A stretch of 64,000 bases of DNA from Hemiscyllium ocellatum. Taxonomy: Eukaryota. Of the stretch, positions 8,386 to 51,147 are shown piece after piece. Both the position numbers and the translations under genes were made by a program. Each line of letters starts with the position of its first letter. The stretch's first letter is position 1. The stretch spans positions 42,972,013 through 43,036,012 of the forward strand of contig NC_083414.1 of NCBI RefSeq assembly GCF_020745735.1. Direction: 5' to 3'. The notes below the pieces were generated by a model. That model was given only the letters and a program-made list of their open reading frames with translations. It made no database searches and was not told where the DNA came from.

Positions 8386-10002
8386 ACTCACTCTGATTAT
8401 GTGGTGGCTGGTTGTGAGGCAAAAACAGATTGGAAGTAAAGGTGACTGAGCAGGGAGCAAGGATACTGTGGTGAGGGGGATTTCTCAAAACCAGAAAGGG
8501 GAGTACAATAGGAAATGATCTGAGTGTGAATCCTGTTGTAGATGGCAAAAATGACAAATGATAATCTGGGTAAATCTGAAGGCCTTTCCAGTGGAAGCAA
8601 AGGACAAAGCAATCCTACCGTTGTAGAGAAATTATGGAAATTATTGAGAGCAGAGAAACTCGAAGGAAAGACTGATCAGTCAAGTCCCGATCACCCACTG
8701 TGGAAGCAGACCTCGGTGAAATAGAAGTGGTGCCACTTCTGTAGCCTCTGATTGTGGGGAACATAAAGTATCCCTCATTGCAAGAACCAGAAACAGGTGA
8801 TCAGCCTGTAGAAACTAGATTTGTTGCATTTAGTTACATTTAACCTTGAAAGCCACTGTTTAACAGCAATGAGATAACTAATCAGATAACCAGTTTTTGA
8901 CACTGCACTGAAACAATTGCTTACATTTCTGCTCAAGTCTCTGGAATGGGCTTGAATGCACAACCCTGAGGTGGGATTACAGTTAGTGAGTTAATGCTAA
9001 CACTTTAGCATGGAATGGGATTTGCATGACATATTTTCACAAGTATAGTATGAGTAGGTTCTTTTGGTAGGAATATTTGAATTTTCAATGCAGCTACCTG
9101 AACTGCACCCTGTTTCCCATTTTATTTACATTTATGCTTGCTAATGTTATGATGTATGTACAAAGGCAGATTCTTGGCTCATAGTCTGCGGATTCTTTAT
9201 CTTGAACTGTTTGCTTAGCAGTTTTGTTTTGTCAGGTTGGCTTGCTGTTGCCTTCCAGTCTCAGGGACAGTGACAAGTGGTAGGTCCCAAGTGTACTTCA
9301 GTTAGAATGGTAAGCGAAATTGTTGACATGACTCTGAACTATATCCACCTAATCAACTGAACTAATTCCAACCTTCAACCCTAACCCCTTCTCCCCAGAT
9401 TCAGACAATGGGCAAGTAAACTGGGGTCATCAGTTTTAACAAAGGCATAATGATGGAAAAGCAATCCAATAGATTTAGCTCACTCGTCCTCTATACAGTA
9501 TAATAGAATCTAAATAATATCACAAGTATATCATGTGTACTGTATTACAGGGTAAAGAAAATTATTCCTAAATGCATTCAATAGACAATGTATGTTTAGC
9601 GACAGTAGGAGGCAGAGGAAGGTTTAAACAAGTCAAATATTTGCTTTGAGAGCTGAATCATTTTCAAGCAGAGAGCTCCAGAAATGATTGATTATTAGTT
9701 GACTTTGAAGCACAGGGAGAATAATTATTAATAATGGTAGACTCTTCTATTAAGTCACGGGTAAGGAGTAAAGTAGCCCTGAAAATCAATGACACAGCTG
9801 TTTGTGAATTTTAAAACAGTTCAATAGGTGGAGCTATTAAATGAGAAAGTAAATCAATACTACAACTTCAAAAATTTGGCAGCTGCTCTGGTGTTATTTA
9901 AAATATTCATGATACAAAAAGGCAGAGAATGTTAAGGAATATGCACGACCCCTCCAAAACCTCCTACGTAATCAATAAATGAAATAAAGTGCCACTCACT
10001 AC

Positions 10003-14619: not shown

Positions 14620-15720
14620 ATAGAGTCAGAGAGTCAAAGAGATGTACAGCACGGTCCAACTCGCCCATGCTGGCCAGCCCAACTTAATCTAGTCCCATCT
14701 GGCCCATATCCCACCAAACCCTTCCTATTCATATACCCATCGAAATGCCTTTTAAATGTTCTATTGTACCTGCCTCCACCACTTTCTCTGGCAGCTCATT
14801 CCATACACGTACCATCCTCTGTGTGAAAAAGTTGTCCCTTAGGTCTCTTTTATATCTTTCCCCTCTCACCCTAAACCTATGCCCTCTAGTTCTGGACTCC
14901 CCGACCCCAGGGAAACGACTTTGTTTATTTATCCTATCCATGCCCGTCATCCTTTTTAAAACTGTATATGGTCATCCCTCAGCCTCCGACCCTCCAGGAA
15001 AAACAGTCCCAGCCTGTTCAGCCTCTTCCTGTAGCTCAAATCCTCCAACCCTGGCAACATCCTGGTAAATCTTTTCTGAACTCTTTCAAGTTACACAACA
15101 TTTTTCCGATAGGAAGGAGACCAGAAATGCAAGCAACATTCCAACAGTGGCCTAACCAATGTCCTGCAACATGACCTCCCAACTCCTGTACTCAATACTC
15201 TGACAAATAAAGGAAAGCATACCAAACGCCTTTTTCTACCTATCTACCTGCGACTCCACTTTCAAGGAGTTATGAACCTGGACTACAAGGTCTCTTTGTT
15301 CAGCAACACTCCCTAGGACTTTACCATTAAGTGTATAAGTCCTGCTAAGATTAGCTTTCCCAAAATACAGCACCTCGCATTTATCTGAATTTAACTCCAC
15401 CTGCCACTTCTCAGTCCATTGGCCCATCTGGTCCAGATCCTGTTGTAATCTGAGGTAACCCTCTTCACTGTGAACTACAACTCCAATTTTGGTGTCATCT
15501 GCAAACTTACTGACTGTACCTCTTATGCTCACATTCAAATCATTTATATAAATGACAAAAAGTAGTGGACTCAGCACCGATCCTTGTGGCACTCCACTGG
15601 TCACAGGCCTCCAGTCTGAAAATCAACCCTCCACCACCATCCTTTCTCTTCTACCTTTGAGCCAGTTATGTATCCAAATAGCTAGTTCTCCCTGCATTCC
15701 GTGAGATCTAACCTTGCTAA
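14620..15720 (-). mobile_element. CR1 LINE, 5'-truncated
   Basis: SGVPQGSVLSPLLFVIYINDL, KFADDTK, FFTQRMVRVWNELP, AGAGTC tail at the left end. Confidence 0.92.
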
Positions 15721-17437: not shown

Positions 17438-17858
17438 ACGGTGTTACGCAACTACTATCTGTTTACGTAAGTATTGTAAATTGGCCGATAAATGTTGGTT
17501 CCCTGAAATCCAAACTAAAAACAATAAGTAAACAATTTTACATTGATCAGTTTGCCTTGCACTCCAAAATCTTTAGTATAGAAACAGTGGAAGTCGAAAG
17601 ACTGATCACTGAATAACCACTCAGTATTTCCTCCATTCCTCTGATGTAATCCCTCCAACTAGTAACTTCTAAATTCTATTCTTCAGCCAATTTCTTAGTC
17701 ATTTACAGTTTCTTCCCCCCCATCCGAATCCCCACTGCTTTAATCTAGTAGCCTTTCATGCAGCATGAACACTCCAACATTTCTTAAAAGTCAAGACGCG
17801 GCATGTTAGCTGGATTTCTACTGTACGCTCCTGATGGCAGGCTTTCAAGAAAAATCAA

Positions 17859-18025
17859 AGTTAAAATCACACAACACCAGGTTATAAGTCCAACAGGTTT
17901 ATTTGGAAGCACTAGCTTCCAGAGTGCTGCTCCTTCATCAGGTGGTTGTGGAGTATAAGCTGGTAGGACACAGAACTTATAGCAAAAGTGCTCCCAAGTG
18001 AACCTGTTGGACTATAACCTGGTGT
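17859..18025. mobile_element. PLE fold-back, left part (split by ERV; right part at 22155-22205)
   Basis: Inverted terminal-repeat sequence; TCAAGAAAAATCAA (17845-17858) recurs as TCAAAAAAAATCAA (22206-22219). Confidence 0.8.
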
Positions 18026-18561
18026 TGTCATCATCCCATTTCCCCTCCCAGCCTCCACCTCAGGCAAAGCAAAATGCTCAGAGGCACAGTATAGTTTTAT
18101 CTCCTTCATCTTTATTCTGAGCCCTTGAAGGAGACAGAACGATCTCCCATATGCAGAGAGAGACATAAGTTCTCAGTCTTCTCTGGAGCAGTAGTTTCTC
18201 AAAGAACTATGTAGTCATTTTACAGGAAAGAGCATCCAGATAAGGCAACATACATATTAATTGGGTGACCATTATAATCAGCAAGTGTCAATAGTAAAGA
18301 TTAAGCCATCTGCTGTTACATAATGAATAACTGGCTTCACATAATGAATACTTTTCACCTTGTTACACTTACATTACATACTTATTGCTATTTCATCTTG
18401 TTAAATGGCTCTGCATAATGACTGCTTTTCCACCTTGTTAACCCATTACCTTTGCCTCCAGCACCCCATTGTTAACTGTAAGTTCTTATCTGATCTGAGC
18501 CATGCACAAAACTCAGAATTTAACTCTTTCCCTGCCTGCTCATATCCTATACACATTCTCA
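18026..18561 (-). repeat. 3' LTR of the ERV
   Basis: Homologous to 21556-22154; AATAAA on - at 18111-18116; right boundary could alternatively be 18577. Confidence 0.8.
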
Positions 18562-18576
18562 TTCCCTCCTTTTCTC
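18562..18576 (-). promoter_or_regulatory. Polypurine tract
   Basis: Minus strand GAGAAAAGGAGGGAA immediately before TGAGAA of the 3' LTR. Confidence 0.7.
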
Positions 18577-19096
18577 ATTTATGATAACTGATGGCATTAC
18601 CAGCTTTCATAAGACTCCGACAGCCAGCACCCAAGCAAGCCATTGACACACAGCATTCAATTACTTTAACAACAAAAAAAATCACTAGCCCGTTACAGTA
18701 AATAGAGTTTGAAGAATCTTCTTATGTGGAAAAAAAACACAATGAAACTCTTAAATCCACAGTCTTTAATGGCCACTCCATCCCCTCCAAGTCACGAGGA
18801 AACAAGCCAATTCTCCAAAATCTCCTTCAGTAAAGTCCAACCTGAAAACAAACTTCAGTCTGTCCTTATGCATCACTCCACCGAGAAATCCGATTTCTTG
18901 GATAAGGGCAGTTAAATACTTGAATGAGATTTCCATCCTTGTGGAGATGCTTCAGATAGAGGATACCAGTACACCCAAGCATGAAGTGCAGCAGCAGCAG
19001 CAGCAGCAGGGTAGGTGAACACAGCACTCTAAGCTTCTGCTCCCGCTCTGCTATTAAATGTAACAAAGCCAACTGGCTGTTGTGATGTTAGCTTGA

Positions 19097-19408
19097 TCAG
19101 TGAACCCTTAAATGATCGAAAGACAAGATAAAGCTCACGTGGTTTAATGTCCATAGGAAGGCTACTGACAAAAAGCATACAGACCTCCTCTTCATGGTTG
19201 CTAGCTTCTTCACTTTTGTGCTCATGACTGAGGAGCTGATTGAATCCGTTGGATCAGGTTGTGGAGGGGCGGGTGGTGGTCTGAAGATGTGCTTTACCTG
19301 TGTTTGGAGATACTTTAGAGACGATGTTAGCTGCTGAAAGTATCTTTGCATTTCCTCTCTCATTCCTTCCTTGCCAAGGTGGTTATCAGTATGAAGACAG
19401 TCACACAT
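19097..19408 (-). pseudogene. Retroviral integrase N-terminal remnant
   Basis: CLHTDNHLGKEGMREEMQRYF resembles the HH half of the retroviral IN HHCC domain; located inside the LTR pair. Confidence 0.5.
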
Positions 19409-19811
19409 TTACCGACACTAAATTGTGTCTGCCTACTTCAACCTTCTTTGAATTCTTGAAGTCTATTACTCTGTTCACTATACAATTCAGTCAATTATAA
19501 ATAACAATCAATGGCCCTAAAATCAAATCCTTGGGTGCCTCCATTCAGGTTATTCAAAAATTATTTTCTTTTAACAAATTGATACTTGGCTAATGTGAAA
19601 GCTGTCAGGAAAAGTATTTCAAAAGTCTGGAACAGCAAGAAAACAACAAAATGTCTCTTGTGCTTTAATAATTGAAGAGACAGTTTCAGTTCAGATTTAA
19701 ATCTCAAATATTCATGGGAAACAAAAGCTGAATATTTTAAAAAAAGGTTCTGCAAATGAAACTTCCTAAATAAAACAGCCGAAATTACAGTGGCAACTTT
19801 GGTTGAGATCA

Positions 19812-20207
19812 TGATTTGGAGATGTAAAACTCTGTTATCTCACTTTTTAGATTAGAATCAATCTAAACATCAGGTCACAGACAGAGAACACAGGGGGCTA
19901 ACACCTTCAACATATTGTCCAGCTATCACCATTGTTAACCCGAGAATGCAACTTTTTAAAAAAAGGTTTTGTGATTTACACATGAAAGAAGAGAAACTAT
20001 CACTGTATTCTAAAAGATGAAAGGCTTAACAGACAATCAAATTTTCAATGTATAATTTCAGTTACATCACACTGCAAATTTTTGCTATAAATTCTGTGTT
20101 ACGATCGAGCCCTCCACTATCACCTGATGAAGGAGCGTTGCTCCGAAAGCTAGTGTGCTTCCAATTAAATCTGTTGGACTATAACCTGGTGTTGTGTGAT
20201 TTTTAAC
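19812..20207 (+). mobile_element. PLE terminal-repeat insertion within the ERV
   Basis: Near-identical to 32718-33107; short inverted tail TGATTTGGAGATG; flanks TTGGTTGAGATCA / TTGGTAGAGATCA. Confidence 0.88.
20121..20155 (+). ncRNA. Minimal type I hammerhead ribozyme motif (PLE)
   Basis: CAC-CTGATGA-A-GGAGC gtt GCTCC-GAA-AGCT-A-GTG. Confidence 0.8.
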
Positions 20208-20940
20208 TTGGTAGAGATCAACATCCTTTAAATTTGCAATATGAAGGGGGCCACTGAAGTCTTAACAAAAGCAGTTCAGCCTCAAGGTCTAATATTTTCT
20301 GGAAAATTAAACAAACATCAAACTAAAAATGTACTCATCTTTTTGTAAACACTATGCATTAAAAACACAGCAGCAAAGATATTTTAATACAAAACTCTCA
20401 TCTGGTTAAAGCATGACCACTGACCCAACTGTGTTGTAGAATTACAAACAAATCAGGGGCTCAAAGCATTCAATCAATTTGTTTTAAGGTTACAAGTTTG
20501 ATCATTTTAAAAAGGACATAATGTTGTACAACTTCAACGTAAAAACAAAATCTGTCCCATTGCATAGCCCACGAAACACACTGAATTGAGAGCCTGACTC
20601 AAACAAGGCAAAACAGTTACTTAAAAGGATTTCCGAACAATTATTTTAACAAACCAAAATTTTTAAACATCAAACACTCACAGCATGGCACAATTTACAT
20701 TGAAACTTGCCACTTTCAACCCCAGAGTTAGTACAACCGCAATTTCAGTGTTTCTCTTTTATTTTGCATCCTCACACTGAAATTACGCCGATAACAAGAG
20801 AAAGCCCTCGCAGCGGACCACATGCTGCTGCAATCCAAGCCACTCTTTTACCCCAGAGCAAAGACTCGCAGAGCCTCAAATTGTGGCACTAGAGGACTTT
20901 AACCCATTTCTCACTTTATTCCTCATGGGGGCTAGAATCC

Positions 20941-21316
20941 CACTTAAACACAGAGAATCCGAACTGCACTTAAACACAGAAAACGCAAACAACAATTAAA
21001 CACAGAAAACTCAAATCCCAATTAAACACAGAGAGCTCAAACCTCGCTTAAGTACAGAGCTTGAAGCTCAGGACAGTGCGGAGAACTTGAACCTCAATCA
21101 ACCCACCCAAGGGAACTTGAACCCCAGTACTGCACAGAGGACTCAAACCTCAACCAAACCCACCCCAGGTGACACTAGCTCTGGTACTGCGCAGAGAACC
21201 TCAATCACACCCATTCCCAGGGGACTGTAACCCCAGTACCACACAGAGGACTTGAACCTCAATCACACCCACCTCAGAGGACTGTAACCCCAGTACCGCA
21301 CAGAGGATTCAAACCT
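20941..21316. repeat. Compound minisatellite in the ERV leader
   Basis: ~26-bp unit (TTAAACACAGA..) x5, then a ~58-bp unit (AACCCCAGTAC..CACAGAGGAC..AACCTCAATC) x4-5. Confidence 0.85.
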
Positions 21317-21537
21317 CTGCCTGCCAGCCCGCTTGTGAAACTGTGTCTCTCAACTGAACTAATTACTGTTCGAGGAATCTATAGAATAGAGAGTGATTGA
21401 ACAAGGGGACCATCTCTAAGACACAGGAATACCAAGAGGGACCAAGGTTTAAAATCTTAATTTGTGGGGCCATCCAACTCAAGACACCGGTGTTCCAAGT
21501 GGCTGCTGACACCATCTGATCGTAACTATCCATGTGG

Positions 21538-21554
21538 ATCCTGCCAACTAACCA
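21538..21554 (-). promoter_or_regulatory. Primer binding site, tRNA-Ser-like
   Basis: TGGTTAGTTGGCAGGAT, 1 nt after the 5' LTR, versus the tRNA-Ser 3' complement TGGCGTAGTCGGCAGGAT. Confidence 0.75.
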
Positions 21555-21555
21555 A

Positions 21556-22154
21556 TATCATCGTCCCATTCCCATCCCTCCCTCCCCTCCACACCCAAAC
21601 CCCCACACACCACCACACCCACCACCCACCTCCCCCCTCCCCCAGCAAAGCAAAACGCTTAGAGGCACAGTATAGTTTTATGTCCTATTCCGGGCCCTGG
21701 AAGGAGAGAGAATGATTGCCTATGTGCAGAGACATGACTCACGGTCTTCTCTGGAACAACAGTTTCTCAATTAACTATATAATCATTTTCCAGGATGGAG
21801 AATCCAGATAAGGCCACATACATATTAAGTGGGTAACCGTTACAATCAATGAGTATCATTAGCAGAGACCAAGGCCTTTACTGTTATACAATGGATGTTC
21901 TCAACCTTGTTAACTAGATTCATACAATAGGCACTTTTCCCCTTGTTAGCTGACCTTGTATCCTGAATGCTTCCAATATTGTTACGTGGCTCTACATAAT
22001 GACTGTTTTTCCACCTTGTTAACCCATTACCTTTGCCTCCAGCACCCCATTGTTAACTGTAAGTTCTTATCTGATCTGAGTCATGCTTAGCTGATCCTCT
22101 TGTTTCACAAAACTCAGAACTTAACTCTTTCCCTGCCTGCTTCTACCTTTCTCA
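21556..22154 (-). repeat. 5' LTR of the ERV
   Basis: Homologous to 18026-18561; ends in TTCTCA where the PLE sequence resumes. Confidence 0.8.
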
Positions 22155-24344
22155 TTGTTTGATTTTTAACTTTGTACACCGCAGTTCAACACCAGCACCT
22201 CCGCATCAAAAAAAATCAAGATTTGTCAAGCAGGATCGTACTCATTCGAATCCATACTGAATGCTGTTAATATGTCGTTCAGTTAAGGTAACCTTTATAG
22301 CATTCAGATTGAAATGGGTAAGAAGGCAACTAGTTGTTCTAAACTGTTCCTTCCCTCAACATGCTGTTTCATTCTACAGCAACTGCACACTGTTATTGTA
22401 CACGAAGTGAAGGAGGATTTGGGATTTTTATTACTGTTATTGAAAAAAAACTTCACTTATTGAATTTCATTTATCAAGCCCAAACAATTCACTCCTTTGA
22501 GAAAAATATGAACCATCATGGAATTCCACTTTATATGATCTAACCCTTTATGTTGGAGGTATTCCTTTAATAGTTGTGGCCAGAGGCAACTGTTTAGATC
22601 ATTTTCTGCTGATGCTTCATCCAGAGTTATTTTCCTGGCACTTTATCAGTGTAGTTACCCATTGTTTTCTACTCTCGTAGAGGTATATGTCTAAGCTTAA
22701 ATTCTATATACCCAATGTTTACACTGGTGCTTTTGATGAAGCAATTTGAAAATAAAACTTACTTGTTGCATTAAAATTCACCAAAGCATTCTAGGATAAT
22801 TTCTTTGCTTAAATAGATTCTGAGAAATGAAATCATAATGAATTTATAGAGCATTAACTACTTGTAATTATTTTATTATTGAAGACTTTCTAGTATACAA
22901 GCATCAGTGGGAAAAACAAGATACAAATCTATTGTTTAAACCAAGTGCGTGTAGTGAGCTGATAAACAATAAGTAGTTAAATAGCAGCTGCACAAGGAGG
23001 AACTGATGGTTTCTTTTAGATGTTAATAAAGCGCTACTTATTAATAAAGTCTTTTTAAGCTATTTAAACAAATATCTAAATACACAATTATTAAAGATGA
23101 ATGGACTTGCTTTTATGTTCTAAAAATGTCATTGAAGAACCTGGACAAAGACTAAAAATTGGTCTTCTTCAGGTGCAGCCATGGTTTCTCATAGTGATTC
23201 AATTTTATTGCTGTCCTCAGTTGTAATAAAAGATCTGGTAGCAATTAATTCTGATAATAATGTTTTGGTCCAAAGAAATAATTGCTTGAATCAGGCAGTT
23301 AGCAGCAATAATAGCAACACCAGCTTTGCAGCTCTGCAGAAATTGCTACTAAGGATGCTACAGCACGTTTAAGCAGCTTCTGTGCTGCTGTGATCCAGTG
23401 CTATTTACCCCATACAGAATTGGTGCAGTCCCATTCTAATATTAAACATTTACAACATGCAGTTTCTTCCTCGGTTCCAAAATTTTACTCTTTGCTTTCT
23501 GCTTAGTCTGAGGTACTTGCATCCAACTCAGCAACAGTCTAACAAATAAACTAAGGCAGAATTCCAACATACTTAATTTTTAACATTATTCAGAATTTGA
23601 AATGCGTTGACTGTATTTCAAGACCTATATTTAAATGTATTTTCCTCTCTACAGTAATTAATGTTATCCCTGACATAAAATTAATCGTACAGAACTAATA
23701 TTTTTGCCAAATTATGATAGCATTGTCTTGTTTCCAAAGACTTTTTGATACAGTGAATCTGATGTAACCACTTGCAGGTTTGAATTTGTTTTCTTCTTGG
23801 TGTTGAGCTGCCTGTAGTAACAGGTCAGCAGGGAGCACAGCAGACTGCAGAAGCAATGCTCTACAAATACAAACTAAAACAGCTACAGCCAGAGAACAAA
23901 GCTTCAGAAGGCTGAAGAATCTGGCTTAAACAATACGAGAAGTTGTACCAAAAGAGTATTTCTGTATTGGACAATGACATAAGATTACTGCTCACTTAGA
24001 ACTTTGAAGATTTTTTTTCCAATTAAAAACTTTTAAAATTAGTTTCTTAGGAATATACTTTCCACTAATATAATTCATAATTTCCTAAAAGCCAATACTT
24101 TGTTTAGGCCAACCATAATTAACCTCATTAATCCTAATGTTGCCCTTATAGTGATTCAAATGTGGAATAATCAGTGCAACATTCTCAACCTAATGCAGGA
24201 TCAGTTTCTCTGACTGCTCAGTCTTCAGCGAAAGTCTCACTCACATTCCTGATAAGAAAGAATAATTTTTATTGACAGAGTGCCTTTGATTTTTAAAATA
24301 TTGTTCCCATTGTGACATAGGAAATCAGTGCAAGAGCATACAGC

Positions 24345-30494: not shown

Positions 30495-31019
30495 CTAATA
30501 AAACAAAGACCAGCAATGCATAGGTCATATTGAATATTTCATACAATAAATAGTACTTGTCTTATTATATAAAATTTCAAAGTTAAAAATCACACAACAC
30601 CAGGTTATAGTCCAACAGGTTTAATTGGATGCACACTAGCTTTCGGAACGACACTCCTTCATCAGGTGATAGTGGAGGGCTCGATCGTACCACAGAATTT
30701 ATAGCAAAAATTTGCAGTGTGATGTAACTGAAATTATACATTGAAAAACTGATTGTCTGTTAAGCCTTTCATATGTTAGAATACAGTGATAGTTTCACTT
30801 CTTTCATGTGTAAATCACAAAACCTTTTTTAAAAAGTTGCATTCTCGGTTTAGCTGTTAACAATGGTGATAGCTAGACAATATGTTGAAGGTGTTAGCCC
30901 CCTGTGTTCTCTGTCTAGACCTGATGTTTAGATTGATTCTAATCTAAAAAGTGAGATAACAGAATTTTACATACATTCATGCAGTTTTTGAGCAAAGTGC
31001 AATGTAACTCTGCAAGTAC

Positions 31020-31189
31020 NNNNNNNNNNNNNNNNNNNNNNNNNNNNNNNNNNNNNNNNNNNNNNNNNNNNNNNNNNNNNNNNNNNNNNNNNNNNNNNNN
31101 NNNNNNNNNNNNNNNNNNNNNNNNNNNNNNNNNNNNNNNNNNNNNNNNNNNNNNNNNNNNNNNNNNNNNNNNNNNNNNNNNNNNNNNNN
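31020..31189. other. Assembly gap (170 N)
   Basis: Run of N. Confidence 1.
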
Positions 31190-31358
31190 GGGGTTGTGAA
31201 TGTGAGAAAGTGGGTGTAGTGAGTGCATAGTGTCTCAAGTCTGTGAGGGGGTGCATGTAAGAGTGTGGGAGTGTGTGTGTCTATAAGGGTGTGTGTGGGT
31301 GTCTGTGTGCGTGTCTGTGTGTACCTGTGTCTGCGTGTATGTGAGAGTGTGTGTAGGA

Positions 31359-31438
<80 letters not shown>
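31190..31438. repeat. (GT)n microsatellite / GT-rich tract in the PLE 3' UTR
   Basis: Perfect GT run ~31365-31438 with a degenerate left flank. Confidence 0.95.
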
Positions 31439-31440
<2 letters not shown>

Positions 31441-31451
31441 TGCAATGGTGA

Positions 31452-32708
31452 TCACCTGTAATGTGACATGAACCCAAGGTCCCGGTTGAGGCCCTCCCTA
31501 TGGGTACCAAACTTAGTTATCAGCCTCTGCTCAGCCACTTTCCTCTGCTGCCTGTCCTGAAGTCCACCTTCGAGGATGGTCACCCGAAGGTCCGAGACTG
31601 AATGTCCTGGACCACTGAAGTGTTTCCCAACTGGGATGAACCCTCCTGTCTGTTGACTGTTGTGCGGTGCCCATTCATCCGTTGTCGTAGCCTTTGCTCG
31701 GTTTCCCTAATGTACCATACCGCTGGGCATCCTTGCCTGCAACGTATAAGAGAGACAACATCGGCTGAGTCACATGCGTACCTGCCATGTGCAAGGTGGG
31801 AGGTGTTCCCACGTGTAATAGTGGTATCTATGTCCACAATCTGACACGTCTTGCAGCGTCCACCGTGACAGGGTTGTATGGAGTTGTCCTGAGAGCCGGG
31901 CAGTTTGCTACAAACAATGATCTGTTTGAGGTTTGGCGGTTGTTTGAAGGCAAGTAGTGGAGGTGTGGGGAAGGTCTTGGTGAGATGCTCATCCTCATTG
32001 ATAAGGTGTTGCAGGTCACGAAGAACATGGCGTAATTTTTCAGCCCCTGGGAAGTACTGAACAAAAAGGGTACCCTGTCAGTTGCAGCACGTGTCTGTCT
32101 CCTGAGGAGGTCATTATGGTTCCTTGCTGTGGCATGTCGGAGTTGAGCATCGTACCCCTTTCTTGTGAGGGCATCCTTGAGTACTTCCAAGTGTCCGTCA
32201 CATTCCTACTCATTTGAGCAGATCCAGTGTATGCTTAGGGCTTGTCCATAGGGAATGGGTGTTTTAATTTGTTTTGGGTAGAAGCTGGAGAAGTGTAGTA
32301 TTGTGAGGTTGTCTGTGGGTTTGCGGTAGAGTGTGGTGCTGAGGTGTCCGTCCTTGATGGAGACACACATGTCCAAGAATGAGACAGACAGTCGAGAGTA
32401 GTCCTTGGTGAGTTTGATGGTGGGATGAAACTTGTTGATGTCACTGTGTAGTTTTATCAGTGACTCCTCGCCATGGGACCAGAGGAAGAAAATGTCATCA
32501 ATGTACCTGGTGTACAATGTTGGTTGGAGATCCTGCATCGAGAAGAAATCTTGTTCGACCCTGTGCATAAAAATGTTGGCATATTGGGGTGCAAACTTGG
32601 TCCCCATGGCTGTTCCGTGTGTCTGGAAGAAGAATTGGTTGTCAAAGGTGAAGACGTTATGATAGAAGATAAAGCGGATGAGTTGTAGGATTGTGTTTGG
32701 AGACTGGC
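31452..32708 (-). pseudogene. PLE RT-GIY-YIG ORF, frameshifted
   Basis: ORF pieces 32206-32607, 31828-32190 and 31580-31837; ends GLNRDLGFMSHYR*. Confidence 0.9.
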
Positions 32709-33018
32709 ATGAATTTATGTAAAACTCTGTTATCTCACTTTTTAGATTAGAATCAATCTAAACATCAGGTCATAGACAGAGAACACAGAGGGCTAACACC
32801 TTCAACATATTGTCTAGCTATCAACATTGCTAACAGCTAACCCGAGAATGCAACTTTTTTAAAAAGGTTTTGTGATTTACATATGAAAGAAGTGAAACTA
32901 TCACTGTATTCTAACATATGAAAGGCTTAACAGAATCAAATTTTCAATGTATAATTCCAGTTACGTTACACTGCAAATTTTGTTGTAAATTCTATGTTAC
33001 AATTGAGCCCTCCACTAT

Positions 33019-33053
33019 CACCTGATGAAGGAGCGTTGCTCCGAAAGCTAGTG
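33019..33053 (+). ncRNA. Minimal type I hammerhead ribozyme motif (PLE)
   Basis: CACCTGATGAAGGAGCGTTGCTCCGAAAGCTAGTG; mutated counterpart on - at 30634-30668. Confidence 0.8.
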
Positions 33054-33624
33054 TACTTCCAATTAAACCTGCTGGACTATAACCTGGTGTTGTGTGATTT
33101 TTAACTTTGTACACCCCAGTCCAACACTGGCATCTCCAAATCATGTATAAAATTTCATGCATCATTCCGGTCAGCACTACAATTTCATTCTTTGTGCCAA
33201 TTTTCCAAGCACCTTATCACAATAACTAACTGACATGTTTACTCTACACTACCTTACCCAGGTAACTACATTGGACATTATACAGATAACTGTTTCCTGA
33301 TATCAATCTTTAACTTTTCTTTCACTAGTTTGTACTTACAAACATTTGCCTATAATTTTGGTTTATTTTCAAAAGTTGTATTACACTTATACATTTCCTA
33401 TTTCATGTAACATTACAAACTCAATAAGGTCCCCTCCCATTCATCTCCATTCAAAGCTAAATCATTCAGCTTTTGACCTGTCATGTCACTAATGCTGCAG
33501 GTTAGCAATATGGAGTTTCTGTGCAACCTTCAAGGTTTGGATGTTTATTTGGTTGATCACAACTCAACATGATGCTCAAGATACAACCTGTCTAAAACCA
33601 TCCATAGGACAAGACCACTCTCCA

Positions 33625-37100: not shown

Positions 37101-39086
37101 GGGTTTGTCCAGGAAATTAACACAGCTGCACACGTCAGCATTTTTCATCAAAAAGGATCTAACTGCCTGGATCGCACACTGTGGTTCTCCATTTGATCAT
37201 AGCTGTCTTATTGACAATGCTACATATTTGAAGCCAAAAACTGGCTGAAAAACTAATTGGCAAACTGCAATCCGTTGTCTGACACAACCACATAAGAACC
37301 TAATAAGTAGCAAACATTTCATGCCAGATTCTGATAACACTCTTGGTGGTAGGGATGGTGTACAACATTTTCATCTCTACCTAGCAAGAAAACTCAGCAA
37401 CAGCAAAAGGTAAGAACATCCATCAAACAAACAGATTGGTTCTCATTTGCTTCCATGGTCTGAAGATGAAAGTATTGGGGATGGGCAACTCTTGTTCAGG
37501 TCTTTAACTAGACAATGATTCACATTTAGCTATGATGTCCTCAGTCTCCTTTGAGATCCCCCCTCTGCCACACTGAGGAGTAAGTCTTGGCTGCAATTGG
37601 TTACATCTGTGACACCACAATGAAGTTGCAATGACCAGCCTTTCTAACGCTAGAAAGTCACGTGTAATTGTGAAATGCAGGCAATGCTCAAACAGATCTT
37701 TATGACTAACACACCAAGCCTTTGATCTAGCCAACCTTCAGTTAAATTCTGATGAATGAGATGAATACATTCACAGCCTTTTTTTTGTTCCTGTTGTATT
37801 TGATTGACTACTTTTGCATTGCTGACTACTTTAGCATTGATGTGCAATTCAATTTCATCAACAAATCACTCATCATTCATAGAAAAACTACTGACAGTAA
37901 GCCTGAGCTCGAGTGCATTTAGAGTCTTTTGTAGCTTTCTCTGTACATATCCGGTTTCATTAGCAAATCTTAGGTTAAAATTAATACTTCTGTGTCTGTG
38001 GAGGCATTCTTTGTGTATGTTTTTACCTAGTATGGAGACCAATGGTTTATTGTCCCTACGAGCATGTGCACTCCAAGATATAGTCTGAAAATTGCCTTCA
38101 TAGAGGATGTTGAGAGATTGTCCTTCTTTATAACTGCTTAACATATCTCCATGTCTGATAATGCTGGAGAGGCATAATACACTGTTTTCTGACATCTATC
38201 TGGTTGCTCCAGACAGCATCCTGCAATGTCTGTTACCAAAGGATACAAGCTAATGGAAAGGATGGATAGTAATGGGTCAGGGCATCTGTGAACATCAGTA
38301 TGTCTTTGATCTTTTGAAACTATTCTTTGGATAGGAGTCCCAGTTTCATCTTTATACTTTCTTGGGGAATTACTTCAAGGGTTCATTTGAAGTTGTCAAA
38401 TGAAGCAAAAACTTTGCCAATTCATTTACCATATCACAAAATCTCTATGTGTCAAGGGTTGATTTCAGCATTGGAACTCCTGAACAGCCTTTGTTCTTTG
38501 CAGATCTGGCCGAACTGCATCTTTGTCAACAATATGCTCCAAGAAGTAAACAGATTCTTTGAAGATATGATACTCTTCATTGAAAGTAAGTCCTTCAGCC
38601 TTTAGGAGTTTGAATGCTGCATCCAATTTATGGTTATGTTCTTCAATTGGTTCCCCATGTATCAATGTCATCTGCATAGCACTTGACCTCTTCTAAGCCT
38701 GATAATACACTGGACATGACACTTTGGAAGATATCTGGAAACAAGTGATCCCAACTGTCAATTTATTGAAACAGGAACTCTCAAATAGAATAATAACAGC
38801 AGTAAGGAGTTTTGATTGCTAATCTAATGGTACCTGCCTAACATCCTGTTTCCATCAAGTTTGGTAAAAATTCTATTCCTCACCAATTTTGCTATACTCT
38901 TATTGTCTGTAAACACAGGGTGCACTTCCCCAGCTATTGTTTTGTTGAACAGTATTATATTACCACATTTTCATATGGCTTGGGTATTGTAAATATGCGC
39001 GAGGACCATTCAGTTGATTTGATCATCAGGGAAATTTCACTCTGTCTCATCATTTCTTTCCCCCAAATTGTTTCTGAACTTGAGTC

Positions 39087-40292
39087 ATGAAGGCCTTCCA
39101 AAAGGCCTTTGATAAGGTGCCACACGGGAGGCTGCTCAGCAAGGTGAGGGCCCATGGTGTTCGAGGTGAGCTACTGGAATGGATTGAGGATTGGCTGTCT
39201 GACAGAAGGCAGAGAGTTGGGATAAAAGGTTCTTTTTCGGAATGGCAGCCAGTGATGAGCGGTGTCTCGGAGGGTTCAGTGTTGGGGCCGCAGCTGTTCG
39301 CATTATATATTAATGATTTGGATGGAGGGACTGGGGGCATTCTTGCGAAGTTTGCCGATGATACGAAGTTTGCCGATGATACGAAGTTAGGTGGACAGGC
39401 AGGTAGTACTGAGGAAGTGGGGAGGCTACAGAAGGATCTAGACAGTTTGGGAGAACGGTCCAGGAAATGGCTAATGGAATTCAATGTGAGCAAATGCGAG
39501 GTCTTGCACTTTGGAAAAAAGAATAAAAGCATAGACTACTTTCTAAACAGTGAGAAAATACGTAAAGCCAAAGTACAAAGGGATCTGGGAGTGCTAGTCG
39601 AGGATTCTCTAAAGGTAAACATGCAGGTTGAGTCCATGATTAAGAAAGTGAATGCAATGTTGTCATTTATCTCAAGAGGGTTGGAATATAAAAGCAGCGA
39701 TGTGCTACTGAGACTTTATAAAGCTCTGGTTAGGCCCCATTTGGAGTACTGTGTCCAGTTTTGGTCCCCACACCTAAGGAAGGACATACTGGCACTGGAA
39801 CGTGTCCAGCGGAGATTCACACAGGTGATCCCTGGAATGGTAGGTCTAACATATGAGGAACAGCTGAGGATCCTGGGATTGTATTCATTGCAGTTTAGAA
39901 GATTAAGGGGAGACTTAATAGAGACGTACAAGATAATACATGGCTTGGAAAGGGTGGACGCTAGGAAATTGTTTCCATTAGGCGAGGAGACTAGGACCCG
40001 TGGACACAGCCTTAGAATTACAGGGGGGCAATTCAGAACAGAAATGCGGAGACATTTCTTCAGCCAGAGAGTGGTGGGCCTGTGGAATTCATTGCCACAG
40101 GGTGCAGTGGAGGCCGGGACGCTAAATGTCTTCAAGGCAGAGATTGATAGATTCTTGTTGTCTCGAGGAATTAAGGGCTACGGGGAGAACTCTACTAAGT
40201 GGAGTTGAAATGCCCAACAGTCATAATTGAATGGCGGAGTGGACTCGATGGGCCGAATGGCCTTACTTCCACTCCTATGTCTTATGGTCTTA
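39087..40292 (+). mobile_element. Young 5'-truncated CR1 LINE with an open 373-aa RT frame
   Basis: FQKAFDKVPH...FADDTK...WNSLP; (TCTTATG)-like tail; ATGAAG at both ends. Confidence 0.95.
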
Positions 40293-49100: not shown

Positions 49101-51147
49101 TTGAGGATCAGCAAATCCTTCTATGCCAGTCTGTATGACTTGTAGCCAACCGACAGCGCGGCCTCCCAGTCGTTCCAGTCCTCTATCACAGGGATCTTAG
49201 ACGAGAGAACACAGGAGAGGCTGGATCAGCCACTATCTCTGGATGAGCTGACCAAGGCCCTCAAGTCCTTTAAAACTCCCAGAAGCGAATGCTTACCAGT
49301 CGAGCTCTATTCTGCTCTATGGGACTTGATCAGCCAGGACCTGCTGGAGGTGTATGTCAGTATGCTTCGGGCAGGTACCATGAGTGAACCCATGAGGAAA
49401 GGCATCATCACCCTCATCTACAAGCAGAAGGGGGAGAGGGAGGAAATCAAAAATTGGAGACGAATCTCACTATTAAATGCGGATTACAAAATCTTGTCAA
49501 AAGGTCATTGCCAACCGGGTCAGGTCTGCTCCGAGGTCGGTGATTCACCCTGACCAAACCTGTGCTGTACCGGGCAGGAAGATCGCTGAGAGTCTCGCAC
49601 TCCTCAGGGATATGATCGCCTATGTGCAGGGCAGAGGGTTGGACACCTGCCTGATCAGCCTGGACCAGGAGAAAGCCTTTGACAGGATATCACAAAGGTA
49701 TAAGAGAGATGTTCTCTCCAAAATGGGCTTTGGGGAGGGAATCTGCAATTGGATCAGACTGCTCTACACCAACATCGTCAGTGCAGTCTCAATCAATGGG
49801 TGGGAATCAGATAGCTTCCCAGTCAGATCTGGAGTCAGACAAGGCTGCCCTTTCTCCTGCCTTGTTTGTGTGCTGCAGAGAGCCATTTGCCGAGTCCATC
49901 AGGAAGGATGCGAGCCTGAGGGGGTGACTAGTCCTGGCAGCGGGGGCTTACAGGATAAGGCTTCCCTGTACATGGACGATGTCGCCGTTTTCTGCTCGGA
50001 TCTGCTATCTGTGCACAGACCCATGTGCATATATGACAAGTTCGAACGGACCTCGGGAGCCAAGGTCAACCGAGGAAAGAGCGAGGCCATGTTCTTCAGG
50101 AACTGGGCCAACCAATCCTCCATCCCCTTCACCGTCAGGACCGACCACCTGAAGGTGCTGGGTATTTGGTTCAGAGGGGCTGGGGCATGTGCCAAGTCTT
50201 GGGAGGAGCGTAGCAAGAAAGTGAGGCAGAAACTGGAAACTATGGTCACTTTCCATCGCGGGAAAAAACTGGTCATCAGGTGTGAGGTACTCTCAGTATT
50301 GTTATATGTGGCACAGTTCTGGCCTATTCCCAGAACCTGTGCCGCCGCAGTCACCTGGGCCATCTTCCATTATATGCGGTGATTAAAGATGGACCAGATC
50401 CGAAGGGACTCGATATATATATAGATCTGGGCAACGGGGGAAAAAAAACACCACCCAATGCCACCCTCACCCGGATAGCCACCTTTGTGTGTGGCAGCAT
50501 CAAGCTGTGCGTGGATCCCCGGTGCACAGACATAAAGTGTCACTACGTACTCCGGTTCTACCTGTCCCCGGTGTTGCGAAGGATGGGCCTGGCCTCGCTG
50601 CCACGGAACACTCCGAGTATCACCTGTCCTTCATGGAGAAATTTATGAAGAAAACACCTTTGACCACAAGTCCATCAGGAAGTGGTCAGCATGTAGTGTC
50701 CTTGAGACCCTTCGGGAAAATGAGAGGGCGGATCCTGTCGAGTGGTTCCCTGGGCAGACTGACAGCTCTTTGGTCTGTCTGAAACCTGTTAATCTTCCAG
50801 CTGAAGGAGTTGACCCCGACTGAGTGTTACAGACTGGCACATTCCAAGGTTCAGGACTACGTGCTGAGGGACGCACTGAAGCATGGGGCAGCTGCCGCCA
50901 AGGCGCGGTGGGGAAAGACCACTGTGTAATTTCTGCCCGTCAAAGAACAGGGGGCCCACACAGTAAGTGGGCTCTGTTGATGCCCCAGCTAAATATATGG
51001 ATGGTAAACGTACAGACCTGTATATATGAATGATTACTCGATCTCTGTATGCAAAGAAATGGAATGTTTACATATGTATGACATGACCAATTGTACAGAT
51101 CAGCAATATATTTTATGAATAAAGTATACTTTTGTAATAAAAAAAAT
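49101..51147 (+). mobile_element. Tx1-like (L1 clade) LINE, 5'-truncated
   Basis: ISLLNADYKILSK, IHPDQTCAVPGR, LDQEKAFDRI, GVRQGCP, YMDDV; AATAAA and a short poly(A) at ~51118-51147. Confidence 0.9.

What the first reader, a model, noticed from the sequence alone, without database searches (positions are those of the whole stretch)
18026..22154. Cryptic ~4.1-kb non-autonomous endogenous retrovirus with a tRNA-Ser PBS, nested in a Penelope fold-back
Seen: two diverged direct repeats (536 and 599 bp), TGGTTAGTTGGCAGGAT next to one and GAGAAAAGGAGGGAA|TG next to the other. The interrupted PLE repeat resumes after 22154, with its own 14-bp flanking duplication (17845-17858 / 22206-22219) and a possible 4-bp TTGT TSD. 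Known: this PBS/PPT/TG..CA layout defines LTR retroelements, and AAAAGGxGGGAA|TG PPTs are typical of class I (gamma/epsilon-like) ERVs. Inference: an internally deleted cartilaginous-fish ERV family with no gag or RT that the ORF track does not reveal.
Basis: partly seen in the sequence, partly recalled or inferred. Interest (0 to 1): 0.72.

Follow-up and report, generated by a model that had tools for sequence, protein, structure and literature searches.

The report
Shark retrovirus relic carrying captured RBPMS2
This is one dead copy of an old shark retrovirus-like element that carries a spliced copy of the host's RBPMS2 messenger RNA in place of its own genes, likely picked up by a copying slip during reverse transcription, and that sits at about 200 or more places in the genome.

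Summary
The LTR element is real: minus strand, LTRs 22154-21559 and 18561-18029, tRNA-Ser(AGA) PBS, PPT, TSD TTGT. Window 19251-18717 is a spliced RBPMS2 mRNA piece that maps in order onto 7 of 8 exons of a 111-kb host gene. I saw 198 distinct cargo-bearing loci; rough recapture estimates give 240-380 for this subtype alone. All 39 sampled subtype copies share one in-frame 255-nt deletion.

Both viral parents survive as decayed proviruses. Family B (class I) supplied the integrase scraps and env tail, and both capture junctions show 7-8 nt of shared sequence between virus and mRNA. Family A supplied this copy's LTR, PBS and leader. Likely history: capture by template switching in B, deletion, transfer under LTR-A, then amplification in trans.

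The cargo is decaying: 0 of 58 readable copies have an intact frame, and dN/dS is 0.96 in this subtype. Such captures are published (crocodilian ERVs, 6-9 copies; LTR-mediated retrocopies); five targeted searches listed no paper on this one. This scan had already noted what reads as the same family in two other genomes. Verdict: a known kind, unusually amplified and well documented.

The parts
21559..22154 (-). 5' LTR (family A type), starts TG, ends TG
   Evidence: LTR shared with decayed full-length provirus L162 at 78-88%
21538..21554 (-). Primer-binding site for tRNA-Ser(AGA), decayed; follows a 4-nt spacer (21558-21555)
20966..21537 (-). Leader from family A with 57-bp and 26-bp tandem repeats (inner boundary approximate)
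   Evidence: L162 matches element positions 582-911, L169 582-1188
19404..20965 (-). AT-rich family-specific middle segment (about 1.15 kb without the nested insert), origin unexplained
   Evidence: found only in family copies among the 40 scored hits; no Pfam hit on either strand; absent from donors L162, L169
19812..20207 (+). Later, private insertion of a Penelope-end repeat with a 13-bp TSD (19799-19811 / 20208-20220, 12/13)
   Evidence: other copies run straight across this point
19252..19403 (-). Two fused integrase scraps from family B: zinc-finger start and the linker after the catalytic core
   Evidence: (aligns to Integrase_H2C2 region of L138, L140)
18717..19251 (-). Captured spliced RBPMS2 cDNA: end of 5'UTR, exons 1-4, 255-nt internal deletion, end of exon 6, exon 7, first ~200 nt of 3'UTR exon 8; broken by an early frameshift and a stop
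18577..18716 (-). 3' tail of env (transmembrane end) and 3' untranslated stretch from family B
18562..18576 (-). Polypurine tract, near-identical in families A and B
18029..18561 (-). 3' LTR (family A type); K2P distance to the 5' LTR 0.186
18025..18028 (+). Target-site duplication TTGT, left copy
22155..22158 (+). Target-site duplication TTGT, right copy
17845..18028 (.). Host repeat, left part: fold-back of a Penelope-end repeat (arms 17856-17953 and 17987-18028), begins with a 14-bp flank duplication
22155..22219 (.). Host repeat, right part, ending in the second flank copy (22206-22219, 13/14 identical to 17845-17858)

Best explanation
It is a dead copy of a non-autonomous class I endogenous retrovirus that carries a spliced RBPMS2 cDNA, likely captured by template switching and likely multiplied with enzymes supplied by helper proviruses. 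Shown: the cDNA lacks all introns; it is joined to a reverse-transcriptase piece of ERV family B at its 5' end (long subtypes) and to the env tail of family B at its 3' end, with 7 and 8 shared bases at the joints; the copies share their joints; they have their own LTRs, PBS, PPT and TSDs. Inferred order: (1) RBPMS2 mRNA was co-packaged with a family B genome in the germ line and RT switched into it and back; (2) deletions produced two shorter subtypes (185 nt and 255 nt); (3) the 255-nt subtype recombined onto the LTR, PBS and leader of family A, likely through the PPT region the two families share and the integrase scrap; (4) that form amplified in a burst; (5) one copy landed in a Penelope-end repeat here and later received another. 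The cargo is likely a passenger.
For: Exon-by-exon map to parent C181:20445948-20557256, 81-97%, GT-AG introns, 194-aa host ORF. Same 255-nt deletion in 39 of 39 subtype copies plus the window (in 10 of these 40 the aligner split or shifted the gap) and cargo in 18 of 20 copies picked by the non-cargo middle. Decayed full-length donors: family B L144, L145, L147-L153, L155, L156 with pol, and env seen in L150 and L155; family A L162, L169. Joint microhomology. LTR type by subtype: long 15 B, 0 A, 5 none of 20; short 32 A, 3 B, 4 none of 39. RNase H remnant matches MLV/XMRV RNase H, E 7.6e-10. TSDs. Star-like tree. Neutral decay. rbpms2 acts in zebrafish germ cells and oocytes (PMC6049948, abstract).
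Against: No intact helper close to either family was found: the nearest open Pol frames are 33-42% identical, so trans-mobilisation is inferred. The 1.15-kb middle segment has no identified source. In long subtypes the RT piece lies downstream of RNase H and integrase pieces, out of order, which needs an extra rearrangement. The tree is weakly resolved (87% for the short clade without L050, L058; 5 of 60 rows left out; no one-clade test run), so the order rests on shared deletions and LTR types. The 185-nt subtype has dN/dS 0.70 (0.54-0.91), slightly under 1. The window's LTRs end TG, not CA.
Confidence: 0.88

Rival explanations
1. Read-through capture: a family B provirus sat in or upstream of RBPMS2, a DNA deletion or splice made the 5' joint, and only the 3' joint came from template switching (the classical oncogene-transduction route, recalled).
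For: The 5' joint lies in exon 1 (5'UTR), which genomic DNA could supply without splicing.
Against: No LTR-B, leader, pol or LTR-A match in 200 kb around the parent gene, including 66 kb upstream of exon 1; the 5' joint has 7-nt microhomology and is not at a splice site. Such a provirus may never have been fixed, so this is not excluded.
Confidence: 0.2
2. The cargo was useful to the element while it replicated (protein or RNA effect in germ cells), which explains its success.
For: The most amplified deletion is in frame and keeps both ends of the protein; dN/dS 0.70 in the 185-nt subtype; a 132-aa open copy of the short type is annotated in Chiloscyllium plagiosum (P0001). A star tree hides selection during the replicating phase.
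Against: dN/dS 0.96 (0.74-1.23) short and 0.93 (0.74-1.21) full; 0 of 58 readable copies intact; the deletion cuts the RRM; three different truncations all amplified; cargo-free LTR-A derivatives also exist (L157-L159, one segmentally duplicated element).
Confidence: 0.12
3. A LINE-made processed pseudogene of RBPMS2 first inserted into a family B provirus, which then spread.
For: LINE/PLE reverse transcriptases are abundant in the window.
Against: The cDNA stops about 200 nt into the 3'UTR with no poly(A), has no TSD, and replaces viral sequence (RT to env tail) instead of interrupting it.
Confidence: 0.04
4. Plain internally deleted ERV with no host sequence.
For: LTRs, PBS, PPT, TSD and pol/env scraps are all there.
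Against: 535 nt are RBPMS2 exons.
Confidence: 0.01

Closest known systems
Crocodilian ERVs with captured host mRNAs: CrocERV31-nectin3 and CrocERV29-KIT-ligand (PMC4299795; 12 passages read)
   Same: A spliced host mRNA inside an ERV lineage, amplified afterwards; nectin3 replaces env, as RBPMS2 here replaces most of pol and env.
   Different: There 6 and 9 copies with intact ORFs under purifying selection; here about 200 seen, none intact among 58 read, near-neutral decay, and the cargo moved to a second ERV family with another LTR and tRNA primer.
LTR-mediated retrocopies of metazoans, incl. maize Bs1 and human FAM8A1_r as cited there (PMC5131818; abstract, sections 6 and 9 read)
   Same: Partial cDNA flanked by LTR-element sequence, microsimilarity at both switch points, no poly(A), secondary retroposition with shared switch points.
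   Different: That paper gives 1-5 copies for Bs1 and 3-10 young retrocopies per species; here one capture reached hundreds of loci, and both viral donors can be read.
Acutely transforming retroviruses that carry v-onc genes (RSV src, HZ4-FeSV v-kit named in PMC4299795; general model recalled)
   Same: Defective genome in which host cDNA replaces viral genes and needs a helper.
   Different: Endogenous, germ-line amplified, cargo is an RNA-binding protein, no sign of retained function.
Mouse ETn/MusD and koala recKoRV
   Same: Non-coding internal sequence of unclear origin, or one family's interior between another family's LTRs, mobilised in trans.
   Different: No captured protein-coding mRNA recalled for those.

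Membership tests
LTR retroelement / ERV | Two direct LTRs | tested here: met
LTR retroelement / ERV | PBS complementary to a host tRNA 3' end | tested here: met
   tRNA-Ser(AGA) for LTR-A, tRNA-Ser(GCT) for long LTR-B copies
LTR retroelement / ERV | PPT abutting the 3' LTR | tested here: met
LTR retroelement / ERV | Short TSD | tested here: met
   4 bp; 9 of 19 perfect, control 0.3%
LTR retroelement / ERV | TG...CA termini | tested here: inconclusive
   met by the family (3' LTR ends CA in 14 of 19), not by the window copy, whose LTRs both end TG
Class I ERV | pol related to gamma/epsilon retroviruses | tested here: met
   RNase H remnant of L072 vs MLV/XMRV, E 7.6e-10; 33-40% identical to Pols with RVT_1, rve, MLVIN_C or Integrase_H2C2; env in donors. 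The window copy keeps only integrase scraps.
Gamma- versus epsilon-like lineage | RT phylogeny with reference viruses | not tested
   no reference RT set fetched; one search found no scored homolog
LTR-mediated retrocopy | Intronless host cDNA with a multi-exon parent | tested here: met
LTR-mediated retrocopy | Element sequence on both sides, microsimilarity at joints, no poly(A) | tested here: met
   judged by eye on 7 long copies and 4 donors (5') and 12 copies and 6 donors (3'); no chance test run
LTR-mediated retrocopy | Secondary retroposition with shared switch points | tested here: met
LTR-mediated retrocopy | Co-transcription with the LTR element | tested here: inconclusive
   contigs of runs only guessed to be RNA span the integrase/cDNA joint
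Functional captured gene (crocodilian type) | Intact ORFs under purifying selection | tested here: not met
   0 of 58 readable copies intact; dN/dS 0.96, 0.70, 0.93
Penelope-like element (host and nested repeat) | End repeat of an element with PLE-type RT and GIY-YIG; hammerhead core | tested here: inconclusive
   repeat flanks an RT at 31190-32757 (RVT_1 hit; GIY-YIG-like motif by eye only); CTGATGA core visible but no Rfam hit and no clear hammerhead fold

The most novel reading that the evidence does not exclude
A germ-line RNA-binding gene served as a viral accessory gene: the in-frame-deleted RBPMS2 helped the element's RNA or particles in oocytes, was handed from one ERV family to another for that reason, and drove a burst to several hundred copies; an open copy in a related shark may still be expressed.
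Probability: 0.1. Interest if true: 0.8.

Novelty: new member of a known kind. Interest (0 to 1): 0.48.

Why it matters
It is a fossil record of retroviral gene capture with every party still readable: parent gene, both viral donors, both joints and the later deletions. That lets the capture route and the hand-over between ERV families be tested directly. The copy number is far above the published cases I read (6-9 in crocodilians, 1-5 for Bs1). Practically, about 200 or more RBPMS2 look-alikes can inflate shark gene annotations (one such copy appears to be annotated as 'RBPMS2-like' in Chiloscyllium plagiosum) and confound RNA-seq, probes or knock-outs aimed at RBPMS2, an oocyte regulator and retinal marker, in a shark lineage used in developmental work. 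There is no evidence that the cargo does anything today.

Tried and rejected
No ORF of 100 aa or more explains the element. Pfam on read-through frames of the window's interior, both strands: nothing. Protein-database search with the pol remnant: none scored. Rfam: two chance-level hits, no hammerhead; folding of three repeat copies gave no clear ribozyme. A host source for the AT-rich middle: none among the 40 scored hits of each of two searches; a spliced source could rank lower. ERV remnants near the parent gene: none in 200 kb. Expression: no RNA holder listed; contigs of four runs guessed to be RNA, from three other coded organisms, cover the family and some span the integrase/cDNA joint, but they may be DNA or intronic, so this is not used as evidence; no piece spanning the 255-nt deletion joint is among the rows shown, and that question stays open. 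Absolute dating was not attempted: no rate was looked up and CpG decay inflates distances. Empty-site check in related sharks was not possible (no relatives held). Literature: searches gave 0 papers; some searches listed 4, 4 and 12 papers, none on this element by title or abstract start; some searches were for background. Subscription papers, Repbase and Dfam were not searchable; the supplements of bioRxiv 10.1101/2021.11.23.469661 (shark ERV lists) were not seen and could hold the donor families. The parrot preprint (passages) has one LTR-mediated retrogene, not an expansion.
Full report
Observation. The two repeats exist and are 84% identical over 510 aligned columns. The element reads on the minus strand. 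With ends set by comparison with other copies, the 5' LTR is 22154-21559, a 4-nt spacer follows, the PBS is 21554-21538, the PPT 18576-18562 and the 3' LTR 18561-18029. TTGT at 18025-18028 and 22155-22158 is the TSD and restores the interrupted host repeat. Of 100 loci examined, 19 had all four ends scorable (81 skipped: 17 no cargo 3'UTR, 14 no PPT, 24 no PBS, 15 no 5' start, 11 no 3' end); 9 of 19 have a perfect 4-bp TSD and 13 of 19 at least 3/4, against 0.3% and 3.2% for mismatched pairs. The PBS matches tRNA-Ser(AGA) genes of this genome.

The cargo. Minus-strand translation shows an RRM just upstream of the PPT: Pfam RRM_1 E 1e-5, RBPMS2 structure 2m9k E 5e-21, best database hits shark RBPMS2. 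The parent gene is at G000:C181, eight exons with GT-AG introns over 111 kb, encoding 194 aa. Window 19251-18749 maps in order to exons 1, 2, 3, 4, the end of 6, 7 and 8 at 81-97%; by the shared joint the cDNA runs to about 18717. It is a spliced mRNA. In this copy it is broken: reading from its ATG gives 42 out-of-frame residues.

The family. A DNA search gave 40 scored matches of 595 candidates at 79-83%; a protein search gave 150 scored matches, two of them parent exons. These make 165 distinct loci besides the window; 18 of 20 further copies picked by the non-cargo middle, 11 of 20 picked by the leader and 3 of 20 picked by pol carry the cargo too: 198 with the window. I inspected DNA for 92 of these; the rest are known from hit coordinates. 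Chapman estimates for the short subtype are 241, 319 and 382 (samples are top hits, so rough). Three subtypes were seen among 60 aligned copies: short (40, with the window), sharing an in-frame 255-nt deletion (mRNA 409-663, inside exons 4 and 6, so not exon skipping); type I (10), sharing a 185-nt deletion; and 10 without either deletion, some truncated. Most end near mRNA position 994; long copies start near 113, short ones at 169.

The viral parents. Long copies have a different LTR (B) and a tRNA-Ser(GCT) PBS. They keep an RNase H piece like that of MLV/XMRV (E 7.6e-10) and integrase scraps that align to the Integrase_H2C2 region of other shark Pols. Eleven cargo-free relatives (L144, L145, L147-L153, L155, L156) are decayed class I proviruses with pol domains, env being read in L150 and L155; they share 72-81% DNA identity with the scraps. 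At the 5' joint an RT piece of family B and the host 5'UTR share CCCCTCC; at the 3' joint the host 3'UTR and the env tail share TGGGAGGA; there is no poly(A). The window's LTR, PBS and leader belong instead to family A, seen as the decayed gag-pol-env provirus L162 and as L169; its pol is only distantly like B (68% over one 350-nt stretch). The two families have nearly the same PPT region. Long copies carry LTR-B in 15 of 20 and LTR-A in none; short copies carry LTR-A in 32 of 39 and LTR-B in 3. Since deletions do not revert, the likely order is capture in B, deletion in B, transfer to A. The tree of 397 cargo columns (55 copies plus host; L074, L075, L084, L086, L087 left out) is star-like and agrees weakly: L050 and L058, with LTR-B, fall outside an 87% clade of the other short copies.

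Age and selection. LTR pairs differ by K2P 0.149 (median of 12 LTR-A copies) and 0.181 (7 sorted as B, one mis-sorted); the window's is 0.186. The copies share Ala8 and the short N-terminus with this genome's gene and Chiloscyllium plagiosum (42 of 60), unlike five other shark genera and a skate in the records; 36 of 60 keep Ala64, where both of those genes have Val (CpG decay can mimic Val). So capture likely fell inside the carpet-shark lineage, before this genome and C. plagiosum parted. Copy-versus-copy dN/dS is 0.96 (0.74-1.23) short, 0.70 (0.54-0.91) type I and 0.93 (0.74-1.21) full, four near-duplicates dropped; 0 of 58 readable copies have an intact frame. This test sees mostly post-insertion decay and says little about the replicating phase.

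Mechanism. Shown: spliced cargo, viral sequence on both sides, shared joints with microhomology, independent insertions, two donor families. Inferred: co-packaging and two template switches, as modelled in PMC5131818 (abstract, sections 6 and 9); mobilisation in trans, since no close intact Pol was found; germ-line availability of the mRNA, from zebrafish rbpms2 (PMC6049948, abstract only). Read-through capture is the main rival for the 5' joint; no ERV remnant lies in 200 kb around the parent, which counts against it only weakly.

Context. The host repeat and the nested 396-bp insert are ends of an RT element at 30580-33111 with Penelope-like motifs by eye; neither Pfam nor Rfam confirmed the label. 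The insert is private to this copy.

Comparison and novelty. Host-mRNA capture by ERVs is described in crocodilians (KIT-ligand, 9 copies; nectin3, 6 copies; intact and under purifying selection; PMC4299795, passages) and across animals (PMC5131818). This element meets the tests for a class I ERV derivative and an LTR-mediated retrocopy, and fails the test for a functional captured gene. It differs in copy number and in the cargo's move between families. Searches listed no paper on it; Repbase and Dfam could not be checked. The scan's own notes e1-8023565 and e1-8025832 describe what reads as the same family in other genomes, and e1-7910996 a parallel SUDS3 capture in a ray; I saw them after my analysis was done, and they are not independent support. 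Verdict: new member of a known kind, interest 0.48.

Noticed in passing
window 30580-33111: A longer Penelope-like element: RT frame with a GIY-YIG-like motif downstream, flanked by two inverted copies of the same end repeat that hosts and interrupts the ERV.
   Followed up: partly
window 19404-20965: AT-rich middle segment shared by LTR-A cargo copies and by cargo-free L157-L159 (in part), absent from full-length donors; could be a second captured host sequence.
   Followed up: partly
L050, L058, L053: Short-subtype copies with a third primer-binding site (Leu-like, by recall only); L053 has a third LTR type, so the cargo may have ridden three LTRs.
   Followed up: partly
L157-L159 (C116, at least 6 hits): A 2.6-kb cargo-free LTR-A derivative multiplied by segmental duplication on one contig.
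   Followed up: partly
L070 oriented 8440-8553: This long-subtype copy lies beside an exon of a bromodomain gene (BRD7/9-like, by eye), in the same orientation.
   Followed up: no
L139 (C112:9145500-9154500) and many C15 loci: A younger, unrelated class I ERV family with long open pol frames (about 33% identical to the remnant).
   Followed up: partly
protein P0001: Chiloscyllium plagiosum 'RBPMS2-like' 132 aa has the short-subtype joint and begins with the integrase-derived stretch: likely an ERV copy annotated as a gene.
   Followed up: partly
L072: Lowest dN to the host among 60 copies (0.049 vs dS 0.28); not intact from its ATG; may be chance.
   Followed up: no
window 39084-40208, 49477-50382, 15236-15622: LINE-type reverse-transcriptase fragments; no host gene found among 15 long ORFs tested.
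   Followed up: partly
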